A stretch of DNA of 64,000 nt from Chloroflexota bacterium (GTDB lineage: Bacteria > Chloroflexota > Dehalococcoidia > Lucifugimonadales > UBA3495): contig JAQBVF010000008.1 of NCBI GenBank assembly GCA_027623675.1, positions 32,001 through 96,000 on the forward strand, in the 5' to 3' direction. The notes under the pieces were generated by a model. That model saw only the letters and a list, made by a program, of their open reading frames with translations, did no database searches and was not told the DNA's origin. The translations under genes were made by a program, and so were the position numbers. Of this stretch, positions 812 through 14,232 are shown one piece after another. The number at the start of each line of letters is the position of its first letter. Position 1 is the first letter of the stretch.

Positions 812-3800
812 TTGGCGGATTTACTGCAAATAGTGGACCTGGCCGACTCGGGCCAGGTCCAACTTTCCTGTTTGACCGGCGTCGATTCATCTGACTCTGC
901 GCCCGCGGCCAACTTCTCCCTGCCTCTCACCGACGCTGAATCGGCCGAGATACGCTGGTATCTGACCGAATACCCCCTGAACACCTTTGGCGAGGCCAAG
1001 ACTCGCGCCGAGTCCGTCGAAGCGGGCTTCAAAGACCTGGGCCGCTTATTGTTTGAAGCGGTGTTCAACTCCAGCGGCGAGGCCCAGGCGATCTTGAAGC
1101 GGGCCACAGAATCTGAGACGGCGCTTTCGATCGTGTCCACCCGCCCCGAATTCCTCGGCCTTCCTTGGGAGTTGATGAACGACGGCGTCGACGCTTACCT
1201 GGCGTCCAAGCTGACCGGGATCTCCCGGCGTCTTTCCGCCGGACCGATGGAGCCTTTCGCCGGGCAACTGCCCACAGACCAACTCAACGTCCTGCTGCTT
1301 CTTCCGCCCACGGGTGGTGACGGGTCCGGCAGCATCGCCACCCAAGCCTTCGCCGCGCTGGAGTCCCTCTCGGTGGAAGCCGAGTTGGAATGCTTGCGCC
1401 CCTCCGCCCTGCCCAACCTGGAGGCACAACTGGACGGCAAGCCAAGTCACTACCACCTGGTCCACCTGGACGGCTTCTCCATAAACAGCGGCGGCATCCA
1501 GATGGAAGACGGCTCCGGCGGCGTTGCAACCGTCACCGCCAAGGAGTTGGCCCGACCCCTGAATAACGCCCAGACCCCGGTGGTGTTGCTGAACGCTTCG
1601 GCGTCGTCGGCCACGAACGACGTTATGTCATTCGCCGCGGGGCTGGCAGAGGGCGGCGTCCCGCAGGTGGTCGTCAATCCGTTGCCCATCACCGGGTCAG
1701 GCGCAGTGTTGGTCTCAGAATTCTTCTTCCGGGGACTGGTTGGCGGCTCATCCGTCGCCCAGACCGTGGCGACCATCCGCCAAGCCTTGATGGAACATCC
1801 CCAGCGACCCTCCGCAACTGGCCCGTTGGCCACCTGGGATTGGACCCTGACCGTATCATTCGAGTCCCGTGAGTATTCTCCGGCTGCCATCGTAGCTGAG
1901 GTTCAGGACCCTCTTGTGCCAGGCATGCCCCAACCCGAGCCGGAATCCCACGGACCGGACCTGCCGAGGGGCGGCCCCTACGGTCTGATCGGCCGCCACG
2001 GCGAGATATTGGACCTGGAACGTAAGTTCCGGCAAGACCCGGTGGTGCTGCTTTCGGGAAACGTGGGCAGCGGAAAGTCGGAGTTAGCCTTGGGGTTGGC
2101 ATCGTGGCTGCGCAACACCGGCGCCCGGCCCGGCGGCGTGTTCTATGCCACATTCGAGGTGGGCGCCGGCCTGGAGAGAGTGCTCCACGAGATCGGGACC
2201 GCCCTGGCCGGCTTGGATTTTGCCGACCTGCGCAGCGACGCCCGCCGGTCCTGGGTGGTCGAATACCTGAGAGACCATCCCGCACTGTTGGTATTCGACA
2301 GCCTGCAAAACCTGGCTGGGTTCCCCACCGGCGCTCCTGGCTTGCTGGAAGAATCGGAAATGGCCAACCTGGACGCGTTCATCAAAGAGGTGGCTGAGGG
2401 CGGCCAGACCTGGACCCTGTTGGTCAGCCGGCGGGAGCAGGAGTCCTGGCTCACCGTGCCCCACGGGGACTACCGTCTGGGAGGGCTGGGCCAAGCAGAC
2501 CGGATCATCTTTGGCACGCGCCTGCTGGAAGAGGCCGGGGCCGACCCCCTGCGCCTTGGCCCCGAGTACCTGGAGATACTCGATATGTTGGAAGGCCATC
2601 CGCTGGCCATGGAGATCGCCCTTCCTCTATTGAAAGATGTCCCGTCATCGGTCTTGGCGGGCGAACTCAAGTCGGCGTTGAGCGAGCACCAACCGGGCGC
2701 CGACGAAGAAGGCCGTCCGCCTTACCTGACCGTGGTCATGGACCATGCCTTCAGCCGGATGACCCACCGCAGCCGAACACACCTGCCCTTCCTATCCATG
2801 TTCCGCAGCCGGGTGATGATGGACATCCTGACCCACATCAACCAGGAGCAGGTCTACCGGTCGGTGATGGGCGAGCAACTGGGCTACGGGGCAACCCGAA
2901 CCCTGCTCCGCACCGCGCGAGCCGGCGGGTTCCTGGAACCCATCACGCCCAGCGTCTACCAGATCCACCCGTCGCTGCCTTGGTTCTACGGGCGCAGCCT
3001 GTACCGCCAACACTCGCCAGAAGCCATCTCCCGATTGGAGCAGGAGGTCGTGCGGGTCTACGCCGACACAGCCGACTATTTCATGGAGACCCTCTACGAG
3101 AACCAGGACGCCGGCACCACCGCCATCCTGGCCGAGGAGGGCAACATCACCCAGGCGCTGGCCCTGGCCGTGGAGGCCGGACAGTGGGAGAACGCCCAGC
3201 TGCTGGTCCAACCCCTGGCCCAGGTCTTCCGCATGCAGAAGCGCTACCCGGAACTGCGCCGCCTGCGCCGCCAGTTGCTGGAAACCACCGGCGCCACCGC
3301 CGAGGAAGCCGAGCAATCGGGCGGCATCCAACTCTGGCTGTACCTGATGGGCACCGAGGCCAGCGAGTGCATCGAGACCCGCGAGTTCGACCAGGCCGAC
3401 GCCCTGAACCAGCAGTTGCTTGAATATCTGGCGAACAAGGAGGACGGAGAAACCGACCCGCGCACCGCCGCGGTCTTCCACCAGATGGGCCAGGTGGCCC
3501 TGAACCGGTGGCAACTGGAAGAGGCCCAGGAATTCTTCACCCAGTCTCTAGCGATAATCGAGGGCGGCGAAGACCAGGAACCGGTGGCCGACGATTATTA
3601 CGGTTTGGGCCTGGTATCTCAGTACCGGCGCCGCTATACCGAAGCCAAGGAATGGTTCAGCAAGGCCTTGGACATCCACCAGCGGGTCAACGACATGGAA
3701 GAGATGGTCAAGGACTACCGCTCCCTGGGTCTCTGCTCCCAATACAAGTTCGAGTACGACGAGGCCGCCAGTTGGTACCAGCGGGCCAGGGAGATCCTGG

Positions 3801-4438
3801 AAGAGAACCGTGACGAAGAGACCGCCGTCCTGGTCTACCATTCCCTGGGCACCGTCTGCCACGCCCAATACCACTACGAAGAGGCCCAGAACTGGTACGA
3901 ACAGGCCCTTAGCCTCAGCGACCGCATGGGCAACCACGCCCAGATGGGCATCGAGTTCCATCACCTGGGCATGGTGGAGCAGGCCCGTGAATTCTTCGTC
4001 GATGACGCGGAGCACTGGTACCGGATGGCCGTGGAGAAGTGGCAGCTGCTAGGGGACCGCCGGTCCGAGGGCGACGAGTACCGCCAACTGGGCGTGCTGT
4101 TCCACGAGCAGAAGGACCTGGACAAAGCCGAGGAATGGTACGGACGGGCCAGGGACGTCTTTGAAGAATTGCAGGACCTGAACCGCATCTGCCGCACCTA
4201 CGGGCAGCTCGGCATGGTGGCCGAACAGCGCGACGACGTACCGGGGGCGCTCTTGTGGGCCGGACGCACCTACCAACTGGCCGAGAGCAACCAACTGCCG
4301 GTTTTGGTGCAGGTCAAAGCCCACCTGGCCCGGCTGAAGGAAAAACACGGGGAGGACAACTTCGCCGCCTGGTGGCAGGAGTTCGCCGGAGAACCTGCTC
4401 CCACCGACCTGGACGTCGACCCGGAAACCGTTATCTAG
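812..4438 (+). CDS. CHAT-like domain + STAND (NB-ARC-like) NTPase + TPR repeat protein, 1208 aa
   Basis: LPWEL CHAT motif; Walker A GNVGSGKS; Walker B LLVFD; GHPLA; YQIHP; C-terminal TPRs; TTG start with GGAGG RBS. Confidence 0.85.
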   Translation: MADLLQIVDLADSGQVQLSCLTGVDSSDSAPAANFSLPLTDAESAEIRWYLTEYPLNTFGEAKTRAESVEAGFKDLGRLLFEAVFNSSGEAQAILKRATESETALSIVSTRPEFLGLPWELMNDGVDAYLASKLTGISRRLSAGPMEPFAGQLPTDQLNVLLLLPPTGGDGSGSIATQAFAALESLSVEAELECLRPSALPNLEAQLDGKPSHYHLVHLDGFSINSGGIQMEDGSGGVATVTAKELARPLNNAQTPVVLLNASASSATNDVMSFAAGLAEGGVPQVVVNPLPITGSGAVLVSEFFFRGLVGGSSVAQTVATIRQALMEHPQRPSATGPLATWDWTLTVSFESREYSPAAIVAEVQDPLVPGMPQPEPESHGPDLPRGGPYGLIGRHGEILDLERKFRQDPVVLLSGNVGSGKSELALGLASWLRNTGARPGGVFYATFEVGAGLERVLHEIGTALAGLDFADLRSDARRSWVVEYLRDHPALLVFDSLQNLAGFPTGAPGLLEESEMANLDAFIKEVAEGGQTWTLLVSRREQESWLTVPHGDYRLGGLGQADRIIFGTRLLEEAGADPLRLGPEYLEILDMLEGHPLAMEIALPLLKDVPSSVLAGELKSALSEHQPGADEEGRPPYLTVVMDHAFSRMTHRSRTHLPFLSMFRSRVMMDILTHINQEQVYRSVMGEQLGYGATRTLLRTARAGGFLEPITPSVYQIHPSLPWFYGRSLYRQHSPEAISRLEQEVVRVYADTADYFMETLYENQDAGTTAILAEEGNITQALALAVEAGQWENAQLLVQPLAQVFRMQKRYPELRRLRRQLLETTGATAEEAEQSGGIQLWLYLMGTEASECIETREFDQADALNQQLLEYLANKEDGETDPRTAAVFHQMGQVALNRWQLEEAQEFFTQSLAIIEGGEDQEPVADDYYGLGLVSQYRRRYTEAKEWFSKALDIHQRVNDMEEMVKDYRSLGLCSQYKFEYDEAASWYQRAREILEENRDEETAVLVYHSLGTVCHAQYHYEEAQNWYEQALSLSDRMGNHAQMGIEFHHLGMVEQAREFFVDDAEHWYRMAVEKWQLLGDRRSEGDEYRQLGVLFHEQKDLDKAEEWYGRARDVFEELQDLNRICRTYGQLGMVAEQRDDVPGALLWAGRTYQLAESNQLPVLVQVKAHLARLKEKHGEDNFAAWWQEFAGEPAPTDLDVDPETVI

Positions 4439-8874: not shown

Positions 8875-8916
8875 CAAGACGCCCGGCAGGAGATACGTTC
8901 TCCGCCGGGCGTCTTG
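8875..8916. terminator. Inverted repeat between convergent genes, likely terminator
   Basis: caagacgcccggc...gccgggcgtcttg 13-bp stem. Confidence 0.65.
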
Positions 8917-8942: not shown

Positions 8943-9206
8943 TTATGGGGTCAGGTCCAGGGCCTCGACGATTCCGTTGAACGGCAACTCGGCGGTAACG
9001 TTGACGTCTTTAACCAGGTCCTGGCTGTCAGACTCGAACAAGCACATGCACCGGGAGTCGCCGGGAACGAAGGTGCTCCTGATGTAGCGGACCGGCTTAC
9101 CCTCTGCCGTGAACTTTTGAGAGGTTTCGATCGCGGCCTTCTGCGCCCTCGCGAGTTGGTCCATGGTCAGCCCCGTAAGGTCTCTTTCCACCATATAAAC
9201 AGCCAT
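8943..9206 (-). CDS. DUF4242 (SCO4226-like) small protein, copy 1
   Basis: MAVYMVERDL...RYIRSTFVPGDSRCMCLFES...LPFNGIVEA; GGAGG RBS before ATG at 9206. Confidence 0.85.
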   Translation of the reverse strand: MAVYMVERDLTGLTMDQLARAQKAAIETSQKFTAEGKPVRYIRSTFVPGDSRCMCLFESDSQDLVKDVNVTAELPFNGIVEALDLTP

Positions 9207-9364
9207 CTCTGTTCCTCCTATCCGGTTTATGCGTCCGCCGGTCCGGCGGCGTGGAGGAATAATAACCTTCCAGGGAACGTTGGGCATCGGCAGAAGTTCC
9301 CCTTTCCGCCAACAGGAATCTTCCAGGTTCGGGGGAATCATTAAGGGTGACGAACGGGTCTGCC

Positions 9365-9380
9365 TGGGAATTAGTTCCCA
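9365..9380. promoter_or_regulatory. Palindrome TGGGAA-TTAG-TTCCCA, candidate LuxR-type operator
   Basis: Dyad lies between the LuxR gene stop and the DUF4242 start. Confidence 0.4.
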
Positions 9381-9406
9381 TGTCCACGGTGGCTGCGGCG
9401 AGCCGG

Positions 9407-11045
9407 TTAAGGGACCAAACCGTTCCGGTTGGCGTAGACCGCAGCTTCAGTGCGGTTCCCGGAGTTGGTTTTGGTCAAGATACTGGTTACGTGGTGGGCA
9501 ACGGTCCGCAGACTGATAAATAGCTCAGCCGCGACTTCTTGGTTGCTTCGGCCTTGGGCAACCAGAATCAAAACCTCGATCTCTCGCGGCGTAAGCCCTC
9601 CCAACAACGGCCGTGTCTCTTGATTGGATTCCATTTCGCCTTGGTCCACGGTAAACCACTCTCTTGGGGCCAATTCGTGAGCAGTATTCAGGTGTTCGTC
9701 TGCCTCAGCCTCCCGTCCCTGAGCCCGGAGCAAAAGGCTGAAATTGTAATGGATAGCCGGGTCGCCCGGCCGGGACCGCAAGACCTCTGAATAGTGAGTC
9801 TCTGCCGCCGCCAAATCTCCCTTCGTATGCAGTAAGACCGCAAAGTTGTTGTGGGCCTCGGGGTACTCCGGCCTTAGACGAATCGCCTCCAGGTAGGATG
9901 CGCTGGCTTCTTCCAGTTGGCCGGCGTTTTCCAGAGCTAGTGCAAAATTGTAGTGGGCTTCGGGGTATTCCGGCCGTATCCGCAAGGCTTCCCGGTAGTG
10001 ATGCCGGGCTCGCTCGACATGACCCAGGTCATCCAACAGGATCGCTAAGTTATTGTGGACCTCGGCATACTCCGGCCTCAGACGTAGCGCCTCAGAGAAG
10101 TGACTCTCCGACTGAGCGGCTTCACCCACTACACGGAATAGGTTACCCAACCCGTAATGAGCGTCCACATAATCGGGGCGCAAACGCAGCGCCTCTTGAA
10201 ACCGTTCCGCGGCTCCATTGAGATTGCCCAGCGATTGTAGGAGCACCCCGTAGTTGTAGTGGGCTTCTGGATACCTGGGACGGACCTTGATGGCCTGGCG
10301 GTAATGCTCGGCGGCCTGGCCCCTCCTCGCCCTTGGCCCGCATGACAGCCCCCAGATTATTGTGGGCCTCTGCGTAGTCGGGCCTCATCTTCAGGGCCTG
10401 CTGATAATACCCAGATTCTTCTTCGCTATTTTCTTGGGCTGTGCCGATACAGGCAACACCGGCCAAAAAAAGGGTCTCTGCAGTGTGTCGCTCACCTATG
10501 TTGCCGGGCGAGTGATTGGGAGATGGTCTGATTTTATAGAGGGTTCTCTGCGGAAGATGGTCTCCCTCCAAAGCGTGGAGGCCGGCAGACTCGAATTCGT
10601 ACATCACCACATCCGAGGCGTCGAGAACGTTCTCAGTAACCAGCAACGAACCGGAATCCGCGGCCCCTGCGATCCGCCGGGCCAGGTCGATGGACCGTCC
10701 GATCCAGGCATCGCCACCATCAAGCCTAGTTGCATCACCAAAATGGCAGCCGAGGCGTAAAGGCAGTCGTGGTAGTTGTTCCTGGCTGCCGAACTTTGAA
10801 AGACCCGAGTTCCATCTCTCGATCAGTTTCAGGCTGAACTGCATCGCCCCATCGGCGCTTTCAAATATGAAGAGATGCCCATCGCCCTGAAAATTCCAGT
10901 ATAGACAGCCGTGCTGCGACGCCAACGATTCCGCCAAGTAACGGTACTCAGCAATCACGGCGACCACTTCGTCACGTGGGATTCGGCCCCAGAGAGATGT
11001 CTGGCGCCCCAAGTCTGAAAACACCGAGGCGAAATATGAAGCCAT
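9407..11045 (-). CDS. Class III nucleotidyl cyclase + TPR repeats + LuxR HTH regulator, split by a 1-nt insertion at about 10320-10323
   Basis: Cyclase motifs [23 protein letters not shown]; about 7 [14 protein letters not shown] TPRs; LTPREIEVL...[16 protein letters not shown]uxR; removing one G from gggg joins the two ORFs into a perfect TPR ([26 protein letters not shown]). Confidence 0.85.
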
Positions 11046-11124
11046 AGAATGCCACCTAGATCGCTACTGAGGAACACGAATGGGGGTGACAAAAGAAACC
11101 GGCGGGGGAGCCCAGCGCAGTTAT

Positions 11125-11400
11125 CTAATTGATCTCTTCCGTGGTGATAGACAGCGCCTCAGAGATGTTCTCCACGGGCAGCTCGGCCCTCTGGTTGGCC
11201 AGCAGCACCGAATCTGGTCCCTCTCCCTCGAAGAGGCAGTAACACTTGTCTTCTCCGGGGATGAAGATGGAGCGCAGATACCTCACGGGCGTGCCTTCCC
11301 TGGTCATTTCCAAAGTGGTCTGTTTGGCCCGCTTGGCAGCTGCGGCGACCTGCTCTCCGGTGAAGTTGGGCAGATGCCGTTCCACAACGTATTGGGGCAT
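11125..11400 (-). CDS. DUF4242 (SCO4226-like) small protein, copy 2
   Basis: MPQYVVERHLP...RYLRSIFIPGEDKCYCLFEG...LPVENISEA; clear paralog of 8943-9206. Confidence 0.85.
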   Translation of the reverse strand: MPQYVVERHLPNFTGEQVAAAAKRAKQTTLEMTREGTPVRYLRSIFIPGEDKCYCLFEGEGPDSVLLANQRAELPVENISEALSITTEEIN

Positions 11401-11548
11401 ACGGGGCCTCGCTTGCCAGATCAATCGTAGGATCCAGTGGAGTATAGATGGGTGGCTTACGCCAGTCAATTTGCCAGTTTTCGGGCCGCGATGACGCGCC
11501 TGAATCGCCGCCAGCTCTCTCGGCGCGACCTGATGGCTAACCGCTCCG

Positions 11549-11671: not shown

Positions 11672-12535
11672 ATGAGCTCCCACGGCACCTCAGATTTCCG
11701 CACTCTTTTCTCCCAGATCGTTCGGTCGCCGGAAGAAGATATCGAACTAGACCGGGCGGCGCTATACCTCGCGGGGGAAGAGTATCCGAATATCGAGGTG
11801 CATCTCCATCTGGCGGAGTTGGATGCCCTAGCCGGCCAGATATCGCTCCGAGTGAGCACCGAAGCCACGCCGGCGGAACTGGGGCGCGCCATCGCCGGGC
11901 ATCTGTTTGGCGAAGCCGGATTCCACGGGAATTCCGGCCGGTACTACGACCCGGACAACAGCTACCTGAACCGGGTCTTGACCACGCGGTCCGGTATCCC
12001 CATAACCCTGTCGCTGGTCTTCATGGAGGTGGGACGCCGCCTGGGACTGCGGTGCCACGGCGTAGGTCTGCCGGGTCATTTCATAGTCGGGATAGACGAC
12101 CCCGAAGCGACCGGCACCGGCAGCCCGATGACCTACCTGGACCCATTCAACGCCGGCGCGATATTAACCGCCGGAGACTGCCGGAACGTGGTCCAGAATA
12201 TGTCGGGCGGACGCATGGAATGGTCAGACGGGTTCCTGGCCCCCTGCACCAAGCTCGACATCCTCTTCCGCATGCTGAACAATCTAAAGAGCATCTACAT
12301 GCGGAGCGAGCAGCACGGCAAGGCCATCGGCGTCATTCAGCGGATGGGCATCATCTCCCCCGGTTTGCCGTCGCTGTACCAAGAGCAGTCCTGGTGCCAT
12401 GCCGAACAGCACGAGTACCGGCGGGCCATCGAATGTTTGGAAGATTACCTAAAAACTGCCGACGGCGCCCAAAACGCCCAGCGTGTCAAGGAACAGATCA
12501 ACGGACTCTGGGCATCGCTGAGCCGGCTGAATTGA
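11672..12535 (+). CDS. SirB1-family transglutaminase-like + TPR protein
   Basis: GFHGN..YYDPDNSYL..V...R.GIPITLS, GLPGHF, DPF, RMLNNLK. Confidence 0.88.
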   Translation: MSSHGTSDFRTLFSQIVRSPEEDIELDRAALYLAGEEYPNIEVHLHLAELDALAGQISLRVSTEATPAELGRAIAGHLFGEAGFHGNSGRYYDPDNSYLNRVLTTRSGIPITLSLVFMEVGRRLGLRCHGVGLPGHFIVGIDDPEATGTGSPMTYLDPFNAGAILTAGDCRNVVQNMSGGRMEWSDGFLAPCTKLDILFRMLNNLKSIYMRSEQHGKAIGVIQRMGIISPGLPSLYQEQSWCHAEQHEYRRAIECLEDYLKTADGAQNAQRVKEQINGLWASLSRLN

Positions 12536-12674
12536 GCCCTCTGTTGATTGAAACACTCCCCGATACCGCCGCGAGAAAATCCGTCCGGGAACATCCGCCG
12601 TATATAATATCAGACATGATTTTCATGTCTGAAGAATTCCCTCGGCCCCACGGGACCAACATCCGGAGCACCCT

Positions 12675-13250
12675 GTGGCCGACTACGAGTCATTAGACGA
12701 CCACCAGTTGATCCAGCGGGTCTCCGAGGTCGACAAGGACGCACTGGAAGCCCTGTATGTCAGGTATCAGACACCGGTGTATTCCCTTGCTATGTTCATG
12801 CTGAAACAACCCGCGTTAGCCGAAGAGGTGACTCAGGACATCTTCCTGAATATCTGGCTGAAAGCCTCCAGCTTCAACGGGGAACGCGGCCAGCCCAAAG
12901 CCTGGATCATGAGCGTGGCACACCACAAGATCGTCGATCTCATCCGGTCGCGGCGCCGGACGATCGTCAACACCGAACCTGCCGATTACGAAACCCTGGA
13001 CCTGCTGCCAGCCGGCGGCGCCTCCACCGAGGCGCAGGTCGAACAGACGATGGACCGGGAACGCATCATGCGGGCCCTGGAGACGATTCCTGGACCGCAA
13101 CGCGAAGTAATCATGCTGGCCTATTTCGGGGGACTTTCCCAATCGGAGATGGCCGAGAGATTGGAACTACCGCTGGGCACTATCAAGACCCGAGTGCGCC
13201 TGGCGATTCAAAAACTACGCACAGTATTGGAAAACGATGGCCACGAATAA
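12675..13250 (+). CDS. ECF sigma-70 factor (SigK-like)
   Basis: AEEVTQDIFL, WIMSVAHHKIVD, YFGGLSQSEMA...PLGTIKTRVR. Confidence 0.92.
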   Translation: MADYESLDDHQLIQRVSEVDKDALEALYVRYQTPVYSLAMFMLKQPALAEEVTQDIFLNIWLKASSFNGERGQPKAWIMSVAHHKIVDLIRSRRRTIVNTEPADYETLDLLPAGGASTEAQVEQTMDRERIMRALETIPGPQREVIMLAYFGGLSQSEMAERLELPLGTIKTRVRLAIQKLRTVLENDGHE

Positions 13251-14232
13251 CCCGAATTACGATCCTGGAGATCGAGATGCTAGGCCGGGCCACCCGGTTG
13301 ACATGCTCGAGGCGTTTGCGCTCGACGCCCTGGACCTGGACGAGGAAGAATCGGTCCAGGACCACCTTGACGCCTGCGGTCAATGCAGCGAGGCGGTGGA
13401 CCGGTACCAGGAAACCGCCGCCACATTGGCCGGGTCAGTCGCCATCCATGAACCGCCTCCGGGACTGCGGGCCAGCTTGATGCAGGCCATATCCAGGGAG
13501 GAACCGGCCACGGCGGCCGGCCCTGGGCCACTGCTTGTGCCTCTGATGGGAAACGGCGCCGCCGGTGGAGAGGAAGCGGGAGGCGGACTGTTCGACAGCC
13601 GCCTGGTCCGTATCTTTGCCCCCATGACCGCTTCCGTCGCCATGGTGCTGGTGGTGCTCGCCGTGACTATGAACGTCCGAATCTCCGGTCAGGTCGACGA
13701 CCTAAAGAGGGAAAACGCCAGTCTCCAGGCCAACGTCGACTCCAACTCCGCCACGGTGACCGCCCAGCTAAACGCGTCTGCCCAAGCGGGGTCCGATGTC
13801 ATCGAGTCGGTGCTCAAGCTCCAACAAGCCAGCTTCGAGATGGCTCAACCCGACAACCGCTCCCTGGCGTTGCGCTCACCTACCACCGGAAGCGCCTCCC
13901 AGGGAATCTTGCTGGTGAGCAGCGACGGCAGCCGAGGGGTGATCATGGTCACTGGTTTGGAGCCGCCCGACCCCGCCACCGACTACCAAGTCTGGCTGAT
14001 GCGCGGCCGCGACAAAGTGTGGGCCGGCACGATCGGCGTCGACTCTCGCGGGTCCGGCACGGTCATGTTGCAACTTCCCGAATCCATCATGGGCTTCGAG
14101 AAAGTGGAATTGACCGCCACCAGGAATGACAGCGCCTCCCAGCCCCAGACCAACATGGTCCTGGAAGGAGACCTGGTGTCGATGGTCACGCAGACTGCGC
14201 CCCGCATGGTGACTTACTCCCCCTGGCGGTAG
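13237..14232 (+). CDS. Anti-sigma factor (RskA-like) with zinc-binding HxxxCxxC and TM helix
   Basis: HLDACGQC, PPPGLR, hydrophobic segment, DYQVW; overlaps the sigma gene. Confidence 0.85.
   Translation: MATNNPNYDPGDRDARPGHPVDMLEAFALDALDLDEEESVQDHLDACGQCSEAVDRYQETAATLAGSVAIHEPPPGLRASLMQAISREEPATAAGPGPLLVPLMGNGAAGGEEAGGGLFDSRLVRIFAPMTASVAMVLVVLAVTMNVRISGQVDDLKRENASLQANVDSNSATVTAQLNASAQAGSDVIESVLKLQQASFEMAQPDNRSLALRSPTTGSASQGILLVSSDGSRGVIMVTGLEPPDPATDYQVWLMRGRDKVWAGTIGVDSRGSGTVMLQLPESIMGFEKVELTATRNDSASQPQTNMVLEGDLVSMVTQTAPRMVTYSPWR

What the first reader, a model, noticed from the sequence alone, without database searches (positions are those of the whole stretch)
8943..11400. DUF4242 / cyclase-TPR-LuxR / DUF4242 three-gene signalling module
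Seen: two paralogous proteins of about 90 aa (YxVER...RS.F.PG...CxCLFE) flank one co-oriented gene encoding a class III nucleotidyl cyclase, about 7 very regular TPRs and a LuxR HTH. The block looks AT-richer than its neighbours and is bounded by a terminator and a divergent promoter. Known: DUF4242 includes the Streptomyces nickel-binding protein SCO4226, and cyclase-LuxR regulators such as M. tuberculosis Rv0386 carry an ATPase domain that is absent here. Inference: this is a self-contained circuit in which small CxC proteins (metal or redox sensing) bind the TPRs or cyclase, and the regulator controls the downstream copy. I know of no description of this arrangement.
Basis: partly seen in the sequence, partly recalled or inferred. 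Interest (0 to 1): 0.75.

Follow-up and report, generated by a model that had tools for sequence, protein, structure and literature searches.

The report
Cyclase-TPR regulator with two DUF4242 partners
Two small genes of unknown function flank a signalling gene that is broken by one extra base in this genome but intact in close relatives, where it likely switches on the second small gene through a conserved DNA palindrome, while the first small gene accompanies it across several bacterial phyla and is likely its input partner.

Summary
The module is real, but the window's middle gene is frameshifted. One extra base at 10318-10323, also in contigs of two possibly source runs, cuts the cyclase-like domain off from six TPRs and the LuxR HTH. 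Congeners carry an intact 542-546 aa gene. Both small proteins are PF14026/DUF4242 but form two subtypes and lack SCO4226's nickel ligands. The upstream type lies beside the cyclase-TPR gene at 19 of 19 GTDB loci over five phyla, including LuxR-less forms. The downstream type appears only with the LuxR fusion (13 of 13 versus 0 of 25 loci). It sits behind a 7-4-7 palindrome and a second site centred at -42.5 from an inferred -10 box. So the regulator likely activates a one-gene regulon, and the upstream protein is likely its input partner. Binding, ligand and cyclase activity are untested; metal-binding aspartates decay in distant LuxR-fused forms (2 of 22 kept). My paper searches found no description. 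This scan has noted DUF4242 beside cyclase-STAND-TPR genes on other DNA before.

The parts
11441..11469 (-). sigma70-type promoter (TTGACT-17-TATACT) in front of the upstream DUF4242 gene and, likely, the regulator
   Evidence: 10 of 12 consensus matches; 2 sites found vs 1.3 expected by chance; both boxes kept in the 6 aligned genomes, one with an N in the -10 box
11125..11400 (-). upstream ('partner') DUF4242/SCO4226-like protein, 91 aa, invariant C53-x-C55, acidic C-terminal tail
   Evidence: PF14026 55.5 bits; subtype alignment of 49; AlphaFold2 model of a congener's copy, pLDDT 96.9, top fold hit SCO4226 4oi6
10324..11045 (-). 5' part of the regulator gene: class III cyclase-like domain (about residues 1-175; D11, G54-D55, R124 kept; N51, A113, D120 non-canonical) and the first TPR; the ORF runs on out of frame to a stop at 10143-10145
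   Evidence: the 300-aa product is a singleton cluster
10318..10323 (-). +1 frameshift: one extra base in a short G4C2 stretch
   Evidence: 4 of 4 congeners aligned lack it; contigs of runs X1 and X2 match the window with 0 differences and 0 gaps (one study, possibly the source)
9407..10317 (-). 3' part of the regulator gene: six TPRs, a linker and a LuxR/GerE HTH (HTH at about 9431-9595); no clear ribosome-binding site before its internal GTG at 10246
9364..9381 (-). distal operator-like palindrome, ATGGGAA-N4-TTCCCAT type (1 mismatch here)
   Evidence: only site with <=1 mismatch in 3.07 Mb (0.25 expected); perfect and single in 5 of 5 module-bearing congeners; no perfect site in 5 module-less congeners
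9286..9303 (-). proximal degenerate copy of the palindrome, 21 nt before the -10 box, so centred at -42.5 if the -10 box is right
   Evidence: same spacing in 5 of 5 genomes and in G005
9259..9264 (-). inferred -10 box (TATTAT) of the downstream DUF4242 gene, with a poor -35 (ATGCCC); ribosome-binding site AGGAGG at 9214-9219
   Evidence: start of transcription not mapped
8943..9206 (-). downstream ('target') DUF4242/SCO4226-like protein, 87 aa, no His, ends in DLTP
   Evidence: PF14026 57.3 bits; 15 downstream copies form one clade (FastTree support 1.0)
8875..8916 (.). G+C-rich 18-pair hairpin between converging genes; terminator-like but without a clean U tract
   Evidence: z = -4.5; not called by the scan; single copy in the genome

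Best explanation
This is a frameshifted copy of a conserved three-gene cassette whose intact form likely works as a one-gene regulon: the cyclase-like/TPR/LuxR protein likely binds the two palindromes and activates the downstream DUF4242 gene, and the upstream DUF4242 protein is likely its input subunit. Step 1 (shown): gene order, two DUF4242 subtypes, both sites and the promoter are conserved in intact relatives. Step 2 (inferred, about 0.8): the LuxR HTH binds the 7-4-7 sites and acts as a class II activator from -42.5 at a promoter with a poor -35. Step 3 (inferred, about 0.85 for a functional link, about 0.55 for direct contact): the upstream DUF4242 belongs to an older two-gene unit with the cyclase-TPR protein and passes a signal to it, most likely by docking on the asparagine-lined TPR groove or the cyclase domain. 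Step 4 (inferred, about 0.6): in LuxR-fused forms the output has moved from cyclic nucleotide to DNA binding, and the cyclase fold mainly serves as a dimerising or ligand-binding switch; LuxR-less relatives are likely active cyclases. Step 5 (speculative, about 0.35): the induced downstream DUF4242 feeds back by competing or pairing with the upstream one. The signal is unknown; a pocket lined by E7, C53, C55 and N69 is the best candidate site, and it is not SCO4226's nickel site. In this genome the circuit is likely off, because the HTH half has lost its start.
For: CO-OCCURRENCE: PF14026 occurs in two copies in exactly the 6 of 20 genus genomes that have the regulator, and in none of the other 14. 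A DUF4242 gene starts within 500 bp upstream at 19 of 19 GTDB loci (5 are congeners) and 42 of 51 metagenome loci. The GTDB loci span Chloroflexota, Actinomycetota, Pseudomonadota, Rokuibacteriota and Gemmatimonadota. Flanking genes differ from locus to locus. LUXR LINK: among complete loci with >=600 bp of downstream flank, a second DUF4242 follows 13 of 13 LuxR-fused and 0 of 25 LuxR-less genes. The palindrome follows 12 of 13 and 0 of 25; the 13th lies inside a read-through tail. The arms change together to CCGGCAA-N4-TTGCCGG in L040, L042 and L090. The first residue of the recognition helix tracks the arm type (R with ATGGGAA/ATAGGAA, S with CCGGCAA). Lux boxes centre at -42.5 (PMC4471428). 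PARTNER LINK: DUF4242 is fused to a canonical cyclase in L016 and joined to TPR arrays in P0194, P0196 and P0214. In a phylum sample, 8 of 15 other DUF4242 genes lie beside TPR, LuxR or STAND genes. TPR asparagines N264, N366, N400 and N434 are invariant in 95 of 95 rows. CYCLASE STATE: both metal aspartates are kept in 77 of 78 LuxR-less, 12 of 13 close LuxR-fused and 2 of 22 distant LuxR-fused proteins. LESION: dN/dS of each half against congeners is 0.06-0.10, like intact pairs at 0.05-0.11, so the frameshift looks recent.
Against: No start of transcription, binding or expression data exist; -42.5 rests on an inferred -10 box. Loci are related: LuxR-fused and LuxR-less proteins are split by a single branch, so 13 vs 0 of 25 is one evolutionary contrast, and the helix/operator covariation is about two changes. 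A divergent short clade (L080, L084, L085, L086, L088, L092) has the cyclase-TPR gene with no DUF4242 next to it (L086 lacks flank), so the partner is not obligatory. The TPR fusions are singletons and may be read-through artefacts; the cyclase fusion is of the His-rich subtype, not this one. 5 of the 15 phylum-sample genes have no such neighbour and 2 more had no Pfam match. The close clade keeps D, D, R and an Ala like active XC_0250, so 'mainly a switch' may be wrong for it. dS exceeds 1, so dN/dS is rough.
Confidence: 0.55

Rival explanations
1. The DUF4242 proteins are small enzymes of the dimeric alpha/beta-barrel type that make or destroy a diffusible ligand sensed by the regulator (LuxI/LuxR or LsrG logic), with no direct protein contact. 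The regulon part of the best explanation would still hold.
For: After SCO4226, the next fold hits are LsrG and other barrels (E about 2e-3). Polar residues E7, R8, R40, Y41, R43, C55 and N69 are conserved in both subtypes, as in an active site. Co-occurrence data cannot tell an enzyme from a binding subunit.
Against: Those fold hits are weak (TM about 0.5, 11-18% identity) and generic for a ferredoxin-like fold. No pathway gene travels with the cassette. The Asn-lined TPR groove suits a peptide better than a small molecule (established knowledge of OGT-type TPRs, which are top fold hits).
Confidence: 0.22
2. The intact close-clade regulator is an active cyclase, possibly a guanylyl cyclase, and cyclic nucleotide rather than DNA binding alone is its main output, with the DUF4242 proteins tuning the enzyme.
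For: The window keeps D11, D55 and R124, and 10 of 13 close-clade proteins keep all three. Ma1120 is active with Ala at the Asn site (PMC4215837). XC_0250 is reported as an active guanylyl cyclase with two Asp, an Ala at the base site and no Asn/Arg (PMC3770947). The genome has 3 cNMP-binding genes elsewhere.
Against: The base-selecting Lys/Glu is Asn and the transition-state Asn is Asp in 13 of 13 close-clade proteins. 20 of 22 distant LuxR-fused proteins have lost one or both metal aspartates yet keep the cassette. No cNMP-binding gene is a shared neighbour.
Confidence: 0.15
3. The frameshift is not a loss of function but a switch (slippage or phase variation), or the two halves are made as separate proteins.
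For: Both halves show purifying selection, and the promoter and sites are intact. The break lies in a short G run. Mycobacterial mclx genes are often frameshifted with little other change (PMC4452763).
Against: The run is only four G. Congeners do not share it. No in-frame allele showed in contigs of X1 or X2 (contigs drop rare variants). There is no clear ribosome-binding site before GTG 10246. A recent lesion explains the same data.
Confidence: 0.08
4. The small proteins sense nickel as SCO4226 does.
For: Same Pfam family and fold. SCO4226 binds four Ni per dimer (PMC4186839).
Against: The ligands conserved in Streptomyces map to other residues. In the 49 upstream-type proteins: His23 to Ala (49 of 49), Asp43 to Ile/Val/Met/Leu (49 of 49), Ser46 to Glu (47), Glu74 to Arg/Ser/Asn/Lys, and His76 to mostly Val/Ser (His in 5). 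Downstream-type proteins have no His at all (15 of 15).
Confidence: 0.05
5. The cassette is a Pycsar-like anti-phage system.
For: Patchy presence in the genus (6 of 20); a weak PycC match over 31 residues (E 3e-4).
Against: No cNMP-binding effector travels with it. It sits at one fixed chromosomal place in the genus. Other PADLOC hits cover only the TPR or HTH parts.
Confidence: 0.04

Closest known systems
Mycobacterial Mclx regulators (Rv0386, Rv1358, Rv2488c): cyclase-AAA/NB-ARC-LuxR (PMC4452763, passages)
   Same: N-terminal class III cyclase homology domain and C-terminal LuxR HTH; some members lack catalytic residues; frameshifted copies occur.
   Different: No AAA/NB-ARC domain: seven regular TPRs follow the cyclase directly. 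It has two dedicated DUF4242 genes and a readable operator, neither mentioned in the passages read.
Xanthomonas campestris XC_0250, cyclase-TPR guanylyl cyclase (PMC3770947, passages)
   Same: Class III cyclase linked to TPRs, with both metal Asp and an Ala at a base-selecting site.
   Different: 886 aa with three distant TPRs, and partnered by a cGMP-binding GGDEF protein. No HTH and no DUF4242 in the passages read. Direct sequence relatedness was not tested.
Streptomyces coelicolor SCO4226 (PF14026/DUF4242; PDB 4OI3, 4OI6; PMC4186839, parts 2-3 of 5)
   Same: Same family and ferredoxin-like fold; C55 matches its Cys51.
   Different: Nickel ligands not kept; CxC subtype; tied to cyclase-TPR and LuxR genes, whereas SCO4226 lies by phoU-phoRP (PMC4991794, passages).
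LuxR-type class II activators at lux boxes (PMC4471428, passage)
   Same: GerE HTH and a palindrome centred at -42.5 from the inferred start.
   Different: 18-bp 7-4-7 site plus a distal copy; input through a cyclase-like/TPR module rather than an AHL-binding domain.
MalT/LAL-type STAND regulators and RRNPP TPR peptide sensors (both recalled, not tested beyond domain scans)
   Same: TPR sensor coupled to an HTH; DUF4242 genes also sit beside STAND-TPR-LuxR genes.
   Different: No NTPase domain; the small neighbours are folded 87-91 aa domains, not short peptide precursors.

Membership tests
PF14026 SCO4226-like / DUF4242 | Pfam score above the gathering cut-off | tested here: met
   55.5 and 57.3 bits vs 28.5
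PF14026 SCO4226-like / DUF4242 | Ferredoxin-like fold of SCO4226 | tested here: met
   model pLDDT 96.9; 4oi6 the only hit at E<=0.001 (upstream type only)
SCO4226-type nickel-binding protein | Ligands His23, Asp43, Ser46, Glu74, His76 | tested here: not met
Class III nucleotidyl cyclase | Homology to the cyclase domain | tested here: met
   Ma1120 E 5e-9; profile E 4e-12; hhalign 96%; LuxR-less relative L039 passes PF00211. The window's own domain does not hit PF00211.
Class III nucleotidyl cyclase | Two metal-binding aspartates | tested here: met
   D11 and D55 in the window; 77 of 78 LuxR-less, 12 of 13 close and 2 of 22 distant LuxR-fused proteins
Class III nucleotidyl cyclase | Canonical base-selecting pair (K/D or E/C) and transition-state N/R | tested here: not met
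   N51, A113, D120, R124 in the window; active exceptions exist
Class III nucleotidyl cyclase | cNMP synthesis | not testable with these tools
   needs an enzyme assay
Mclx (Rv0386-type) regulators | Cyclase domain and LuxR HTH in one chain | tested here: met
   in intact relatives; broken in the window
Mclx (Rv0386-type) regulators | Central AAA/NB-ARC domain | tested here: not met
   no such Pfam match in L024; helical repeats start at residue 189
MalT/LAL STAND regulators | P-loop STAND NTPase domain | tested here: not met
LuxR-type class II activator | GerE HTH | tested here: met
   61.3 bits vs 23.5
LuxR-type class II activator | Palindrome centred at -42.5 of the target promoter | tested here: inconclusive
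   spacing fits in 6 of 6 genomes, but the -10 box and start site are inferred
LuxR-type class II activator | DNA binding and activation | not testable with these tools
   needs EMSA and a reporter
Pycsar anti-phage system | Adjacent cNMP-binding effector gene | tested here: not met
   no shared third gene in an NCBIfam scan of 75 neighbours from 19 loci at E<=1e-15; PycC match only 31 residues

The most novel reading that the evidence does not exclude
CxC-type DUF4242 proteins are a general, undescribed class of plug-in sensory subunits for TPR-based bacterial signalling proteins. One subtype docks on the TPR array and sets the output (cyclic nucleotide, or DNA binding once a LuxR HTH is fused), and a second subtype is induced by the regulator and resets it. 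This cassette would be the minimal, ATPase-free form, and it would record a cyclase turning into a transcription factor with a pseudo-enzyme switch.
Probability: 0.3. Interest if true: 0.8.

Novelty: new variant of a known kind. Interest (0 to 1): 0.56.

Why it matters
DUF4242 is annotated as a nickel-binding protein on the strength of one structure, and this subfamily lacks those ligands. The cassette gives the subfamily a cognate partner, a predicted operator and a one-gene readout, so its function can be tested with three short genes and a reporter. It also adds an ATPase-free cyclase-TPR(-LuxR) family that Pfam mostly misses, with a graded loss of catalytic residues in the DNA-binding forms. 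The window's own copy is broken, so intact relatives (for example L024) are the ones to study.

Tried and rejected
Complex prediction (two upstream DUF4242 chains with regulator residues 1-468): no verdict, score 0.00, controls not folded; counted neither for nor against binding. The downstream type was not tried. Sequencing runs: no RNA holder listed, so nothing on expression; run X3 laid nothing. Assembly error as the cause of the frameshift: disfavoured, because contigs of X1 and X2 (depth 9.5 and 46.8) agree, though both are one study and may be the source. My first reading that G005 lacks the downstream gene and palindrome was wrong: the locus was cut short. My first residue tally used a wrong base-site position and two wrong class labels; it was redone, which left out 7 of 120 rows (P0014, P0017, P0028, P0029, P0030, P0037, P0046: gaps or fragments). 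A wider regulon: not found with the strict motif; the perfect site occurs once per module genome, and G003 has two further 1-mismatch sites that I did not examine. A degenerate motif gives 13 genome-wide matches and is not specific. Horizontal island by composition: weak. NCBIfam names neither small protein, and its TPR hits on the regulator are all under cut-off. The ESM Atlas returned only DUF4242 clusters. Foldseek on the full regulator model listed TPR and other helical-repeat proteins only. Wide structural searches could not be run. One search used wrong coordinates and is not used. The term search in PMC2447327 returned nothing from the text held. The tree (46 rows) has no root, so I do not claim whether LuxR was gained or lost; L045 and L046 appear LuxR-less there only because their contigs end. 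L083 (truncated at 303 aa) is among the 25 LuxR-less loci counted.
Full report
What is in the window. The minus strand carries a 91-aa gene (11125-11400) and an 87-aa gene (8943-9206). Both are SCO4226-like/DUF4242 above the Pfam cut-off, and they are the only two in the genome. Between them lie a cyclase-like domain, TPRs and a LuxR HTH, but in two frames: 10143-11045 (300 aa) and about 10318-9407. The DNA has one extra base at 10318-10323 against all 4 congeners aligned. Contigs of two runs match the window without a difference or gap; they come from one study and may be its source, so they argue against an assembly slip but are not independent. Close homologues are named SAR202 cluster or Dehalococcoidia by their sources, which places the organism by inference.

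The intact form. Five of 19 other genus genomes hold a strong match. Four have an intact 542-546 aa gene with both small genes; the fifth is split over two contig ends with one small gene on each. PF14026 occurs in two copies in exactly these five and the window's genome, and in none of the other 14 (78-92% complete, one 62%). An AlphaFold2 model of the intact protein (mean pLDDT 84.9) shows an alpha/beta domain to about residue 175, helical repeats from 189 to 471 and an HTH. Pfam counts seven TPRs and no ATPase. Each half of the window's gene has dN/dS 0.06-0.10 against congeners, like intact pairs (0.05-0.11; dS above 1, so rough), which fits a recent lesion.

The wider family. A homologue search gave full-length LuxR-fused proteins of about 545 aa and a larger class of about 474 aa without the HTH (best 120 of 4093 listed). 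Scans with the N-terminal domain found 19 GTDB and 51 metagenome loci; the scans rest on two short peptide patterns each, so they are a sample. A DUF4242 gene starts within 500 bp upstream in 19 of 19 and 42 of 51. Of the nine misses, three lack flank (L047, L081, L086), one has an IS-like ORF there (L071), and five belong to a short divergent clade (L080, L084, L085, L088, L092). The upstream gene is co-oriented in 18 of 18 LuxR-fused loci, and divergent in 25 of 29 LuxR-less ones. Other neighbours differ between distant loci (75 proteins from 19 loci). Many loci are near-duplicates or kin, so these counts are not independent events.

Two subtypes. Upstream copies (49) are mostly 86-91 aa, keep C53 and C55 in all, and mostly end in an acidic tail. 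Downstream copies (15) are 87 aa, have no His, end in DLTP and form one clade. The fold is SCO4226's, but the nickel ligands named in PMC4186839 are not kept. Both cysteines lie in predicted strand 52-59. By alignment they alternate with the residues that form SCO4226's dimer core, so they likely face the helices (inference). Metal or redox sensing by them is possible but untested.

The operator. Between the regulator's stop and the downstream gene lies ATGGGAA-N4-TTCCCAT (9364-9381, one mismatch), the only site with at most one mismatch in 3.07 Mb, where 0.25 is expected. The perfect site occurs once in each of 5 module-bearing congeners, at the module, and in none of 5 module-less ones. A degenerate copy (9286-9303) ends 21 nt before a TAxxAT-type box in 6 of 6 genomes, which puts its centre at -42.5, the position given for lux boxes (PMC4471428); the -35 box is poor. 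In three distant loci both arms have changed to CCGGCAA-N4-TTGCCGG, and two are hybrids. The first residue of the recognition helix is Arg with the first arm type and Ser with the second, about two changes on the tree. With at least 600 bp of flank, the second DUF4242 follows 13 of 13 LuxR-fused and 0 of 25 LuxR-less genes, and the palindrome 12 of 13 (the last inside a read-through tail) and 0 of 25. This is the best-supported functional inference, though the two classes are split by a single branch.

The cyclase. The domain is homologous to Ma1120 and other class III cyclases. Both metal aspartates are kept in 77 of 78 LuxR-less, 12 of 13 close LuxR-fused and 2 of 22 distant LuxR-fused proteins (113 of 120 rows). 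Among LuxR-less proteins 22 of 78 have Glu/Gly at the base-selecting sites, the pair that raised guanylyl cyclase activity in Ma1120 mutants (PMC4215837), so some may make cGMP (inference). The window has D11, D55 and R124 but N51, A113 and D120. Ma1120 and XC_0250 are active without the canonical Asn, so activity of the close clade is open. The loss in distant forms that keep the cassette suggests catalysis is dispensable once the HTH is fused.

The partner link. Besides co-occurrence, a same-order genome has DUF4242 (His-rich type) fused to a canonical cyclase (L016). Three singleton proteins join the upstream type to the end of a TPR array, and four join two DUF4242 units; these may be read-through artefacts. 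In a sample of 400 other genomes of the phylum, 12 had 15 matches. Eight lie next to a TPR, LuxR or STAND gene: seven by Pfam, and one is this family's LuxR-less cassette by sequence. Two more lie next to ORFs with a visible P-loop but no Pfam match at E 1e-7, and five do not. Four TPR asparagines are invariant in 95 of 95 rows, which suits a peptide-binding groove; that the acidic tail is its ligand is a guess. Two earlier notes of this scan report a DUF4242 partner of cyclase-STAND-TPR proteins on other DNA; they are leads, partly checked here.

Mechanism. In intact relatives a conserved sigma70 promoter likely drives the upstream DUF4242 and the regulator. The DUF4242 likely relays a signal to the cyclase-like/TPR part, the HTH likely activates the downstream gene from -42.5 with help from the distal site, and the induced protein may feed back. 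In this genome the HTH half has no clear start of its own, so the circuit is likely off. The main rivals are that the small proteins are enzymes acting on a diffusible ligand, and that cyclic nucleotide is still the main output.

Literature. 'DUF4242' occurs in 4 papers and 'SCO4226' in 6. None of the listed titles or abstract openings concerns a cyclase or LuxR partner, and combined searches listed no description of the arrangement (listings only). The library lacks most subscription journals. Seen: PMC4186839 parts 2-3 of 5, whose figure legend lists homologues annotated as guanylate cyclase; passages of PMC4215837, PMC4452763, PMC4471428, PMC3770947 and PMC4991794; nothing usable from PMC2447327. 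No supplements were read; those of LuxR or cyclase surveys such as PMC3466318 (listing only) could list this architecture. MalT/LAL, RRNPP and the LsrG function are recalled.

Verdict. Observation partly confirmed: the parts are real, but the single gene is broken. Interpretation partly supported. This is a new variant of cyclase-LuxR one-component regulators, with a cognate small partner and a predicted one-gene regulon. Interest 0.56.

Noticed in passing
L016:1399-2217 (G025): 272-aa fusion of a His-rich SCO4226-type DUF4242 to a canonical class III cyclase (PF14026 64.2 bits, PF00211 60.2 bits).
   Followed up: partly
P0124-P0139 and P0199: Downstream-type DUF4242 runs directly into a hydrophobic, lipoprotein-signal-like segment and a domain with no Pfam match (for two of them); a recurrent fusion or loss of a stop codon before an exported protein.
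   Followed up: no
P0189-P0192: Tandem proteins with a diverged DUF4242 followed by an upstream-type one; may hint at heterodimers between subtypes.
   Followed up: no
L080, L084, L085, L086, L088, L092: Divergent clade of shorter cyclase-TPR proteins (375-412 aa where complete) with no adjacent DUF4242; in L085 it lies near ruvC-ruvA. A natural control for what the partner needs.
   Followed up: partly
L071:505-1401: An IS-like ORF occupies the place of the upstream DUF4242 gene.
   Followed up: no
L048:4100-4190; L056; L079; L083: Other loci also show frameshifts in the cassette (regulator read-through over the palindrome, split upstream DUF4242, truncated regulator); errors or further lesions.
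   Followed up: no
window 812-4438 (+): 1208-aa CHAT (caspase-like)-AAA-TPR protein, a STAND-type signalling gene 4.5 kb from the cassette; a matching C-terminal ORF lies at the same place in G005.
   Followed up: no
window 11672-14232 (+): Transglutaminase-like/TPR gene followed by an ECF sigma factor and an RskA-type anti-sigma factor; the first gene flanks the cassette in congeners too.
   Followed up: no
L043, L044, L047, L051 and L013 intergenic regions: A third, degenerate site lies between the distal and proximal palindromes where these are about 77 bp apart.
   Followed up: partly
G003:C32:24154-24171 and G003:C57:20278-20295: Two further 1-mismatch copies of the palindrome in G003; chance or extra targets.
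   Followed up: no
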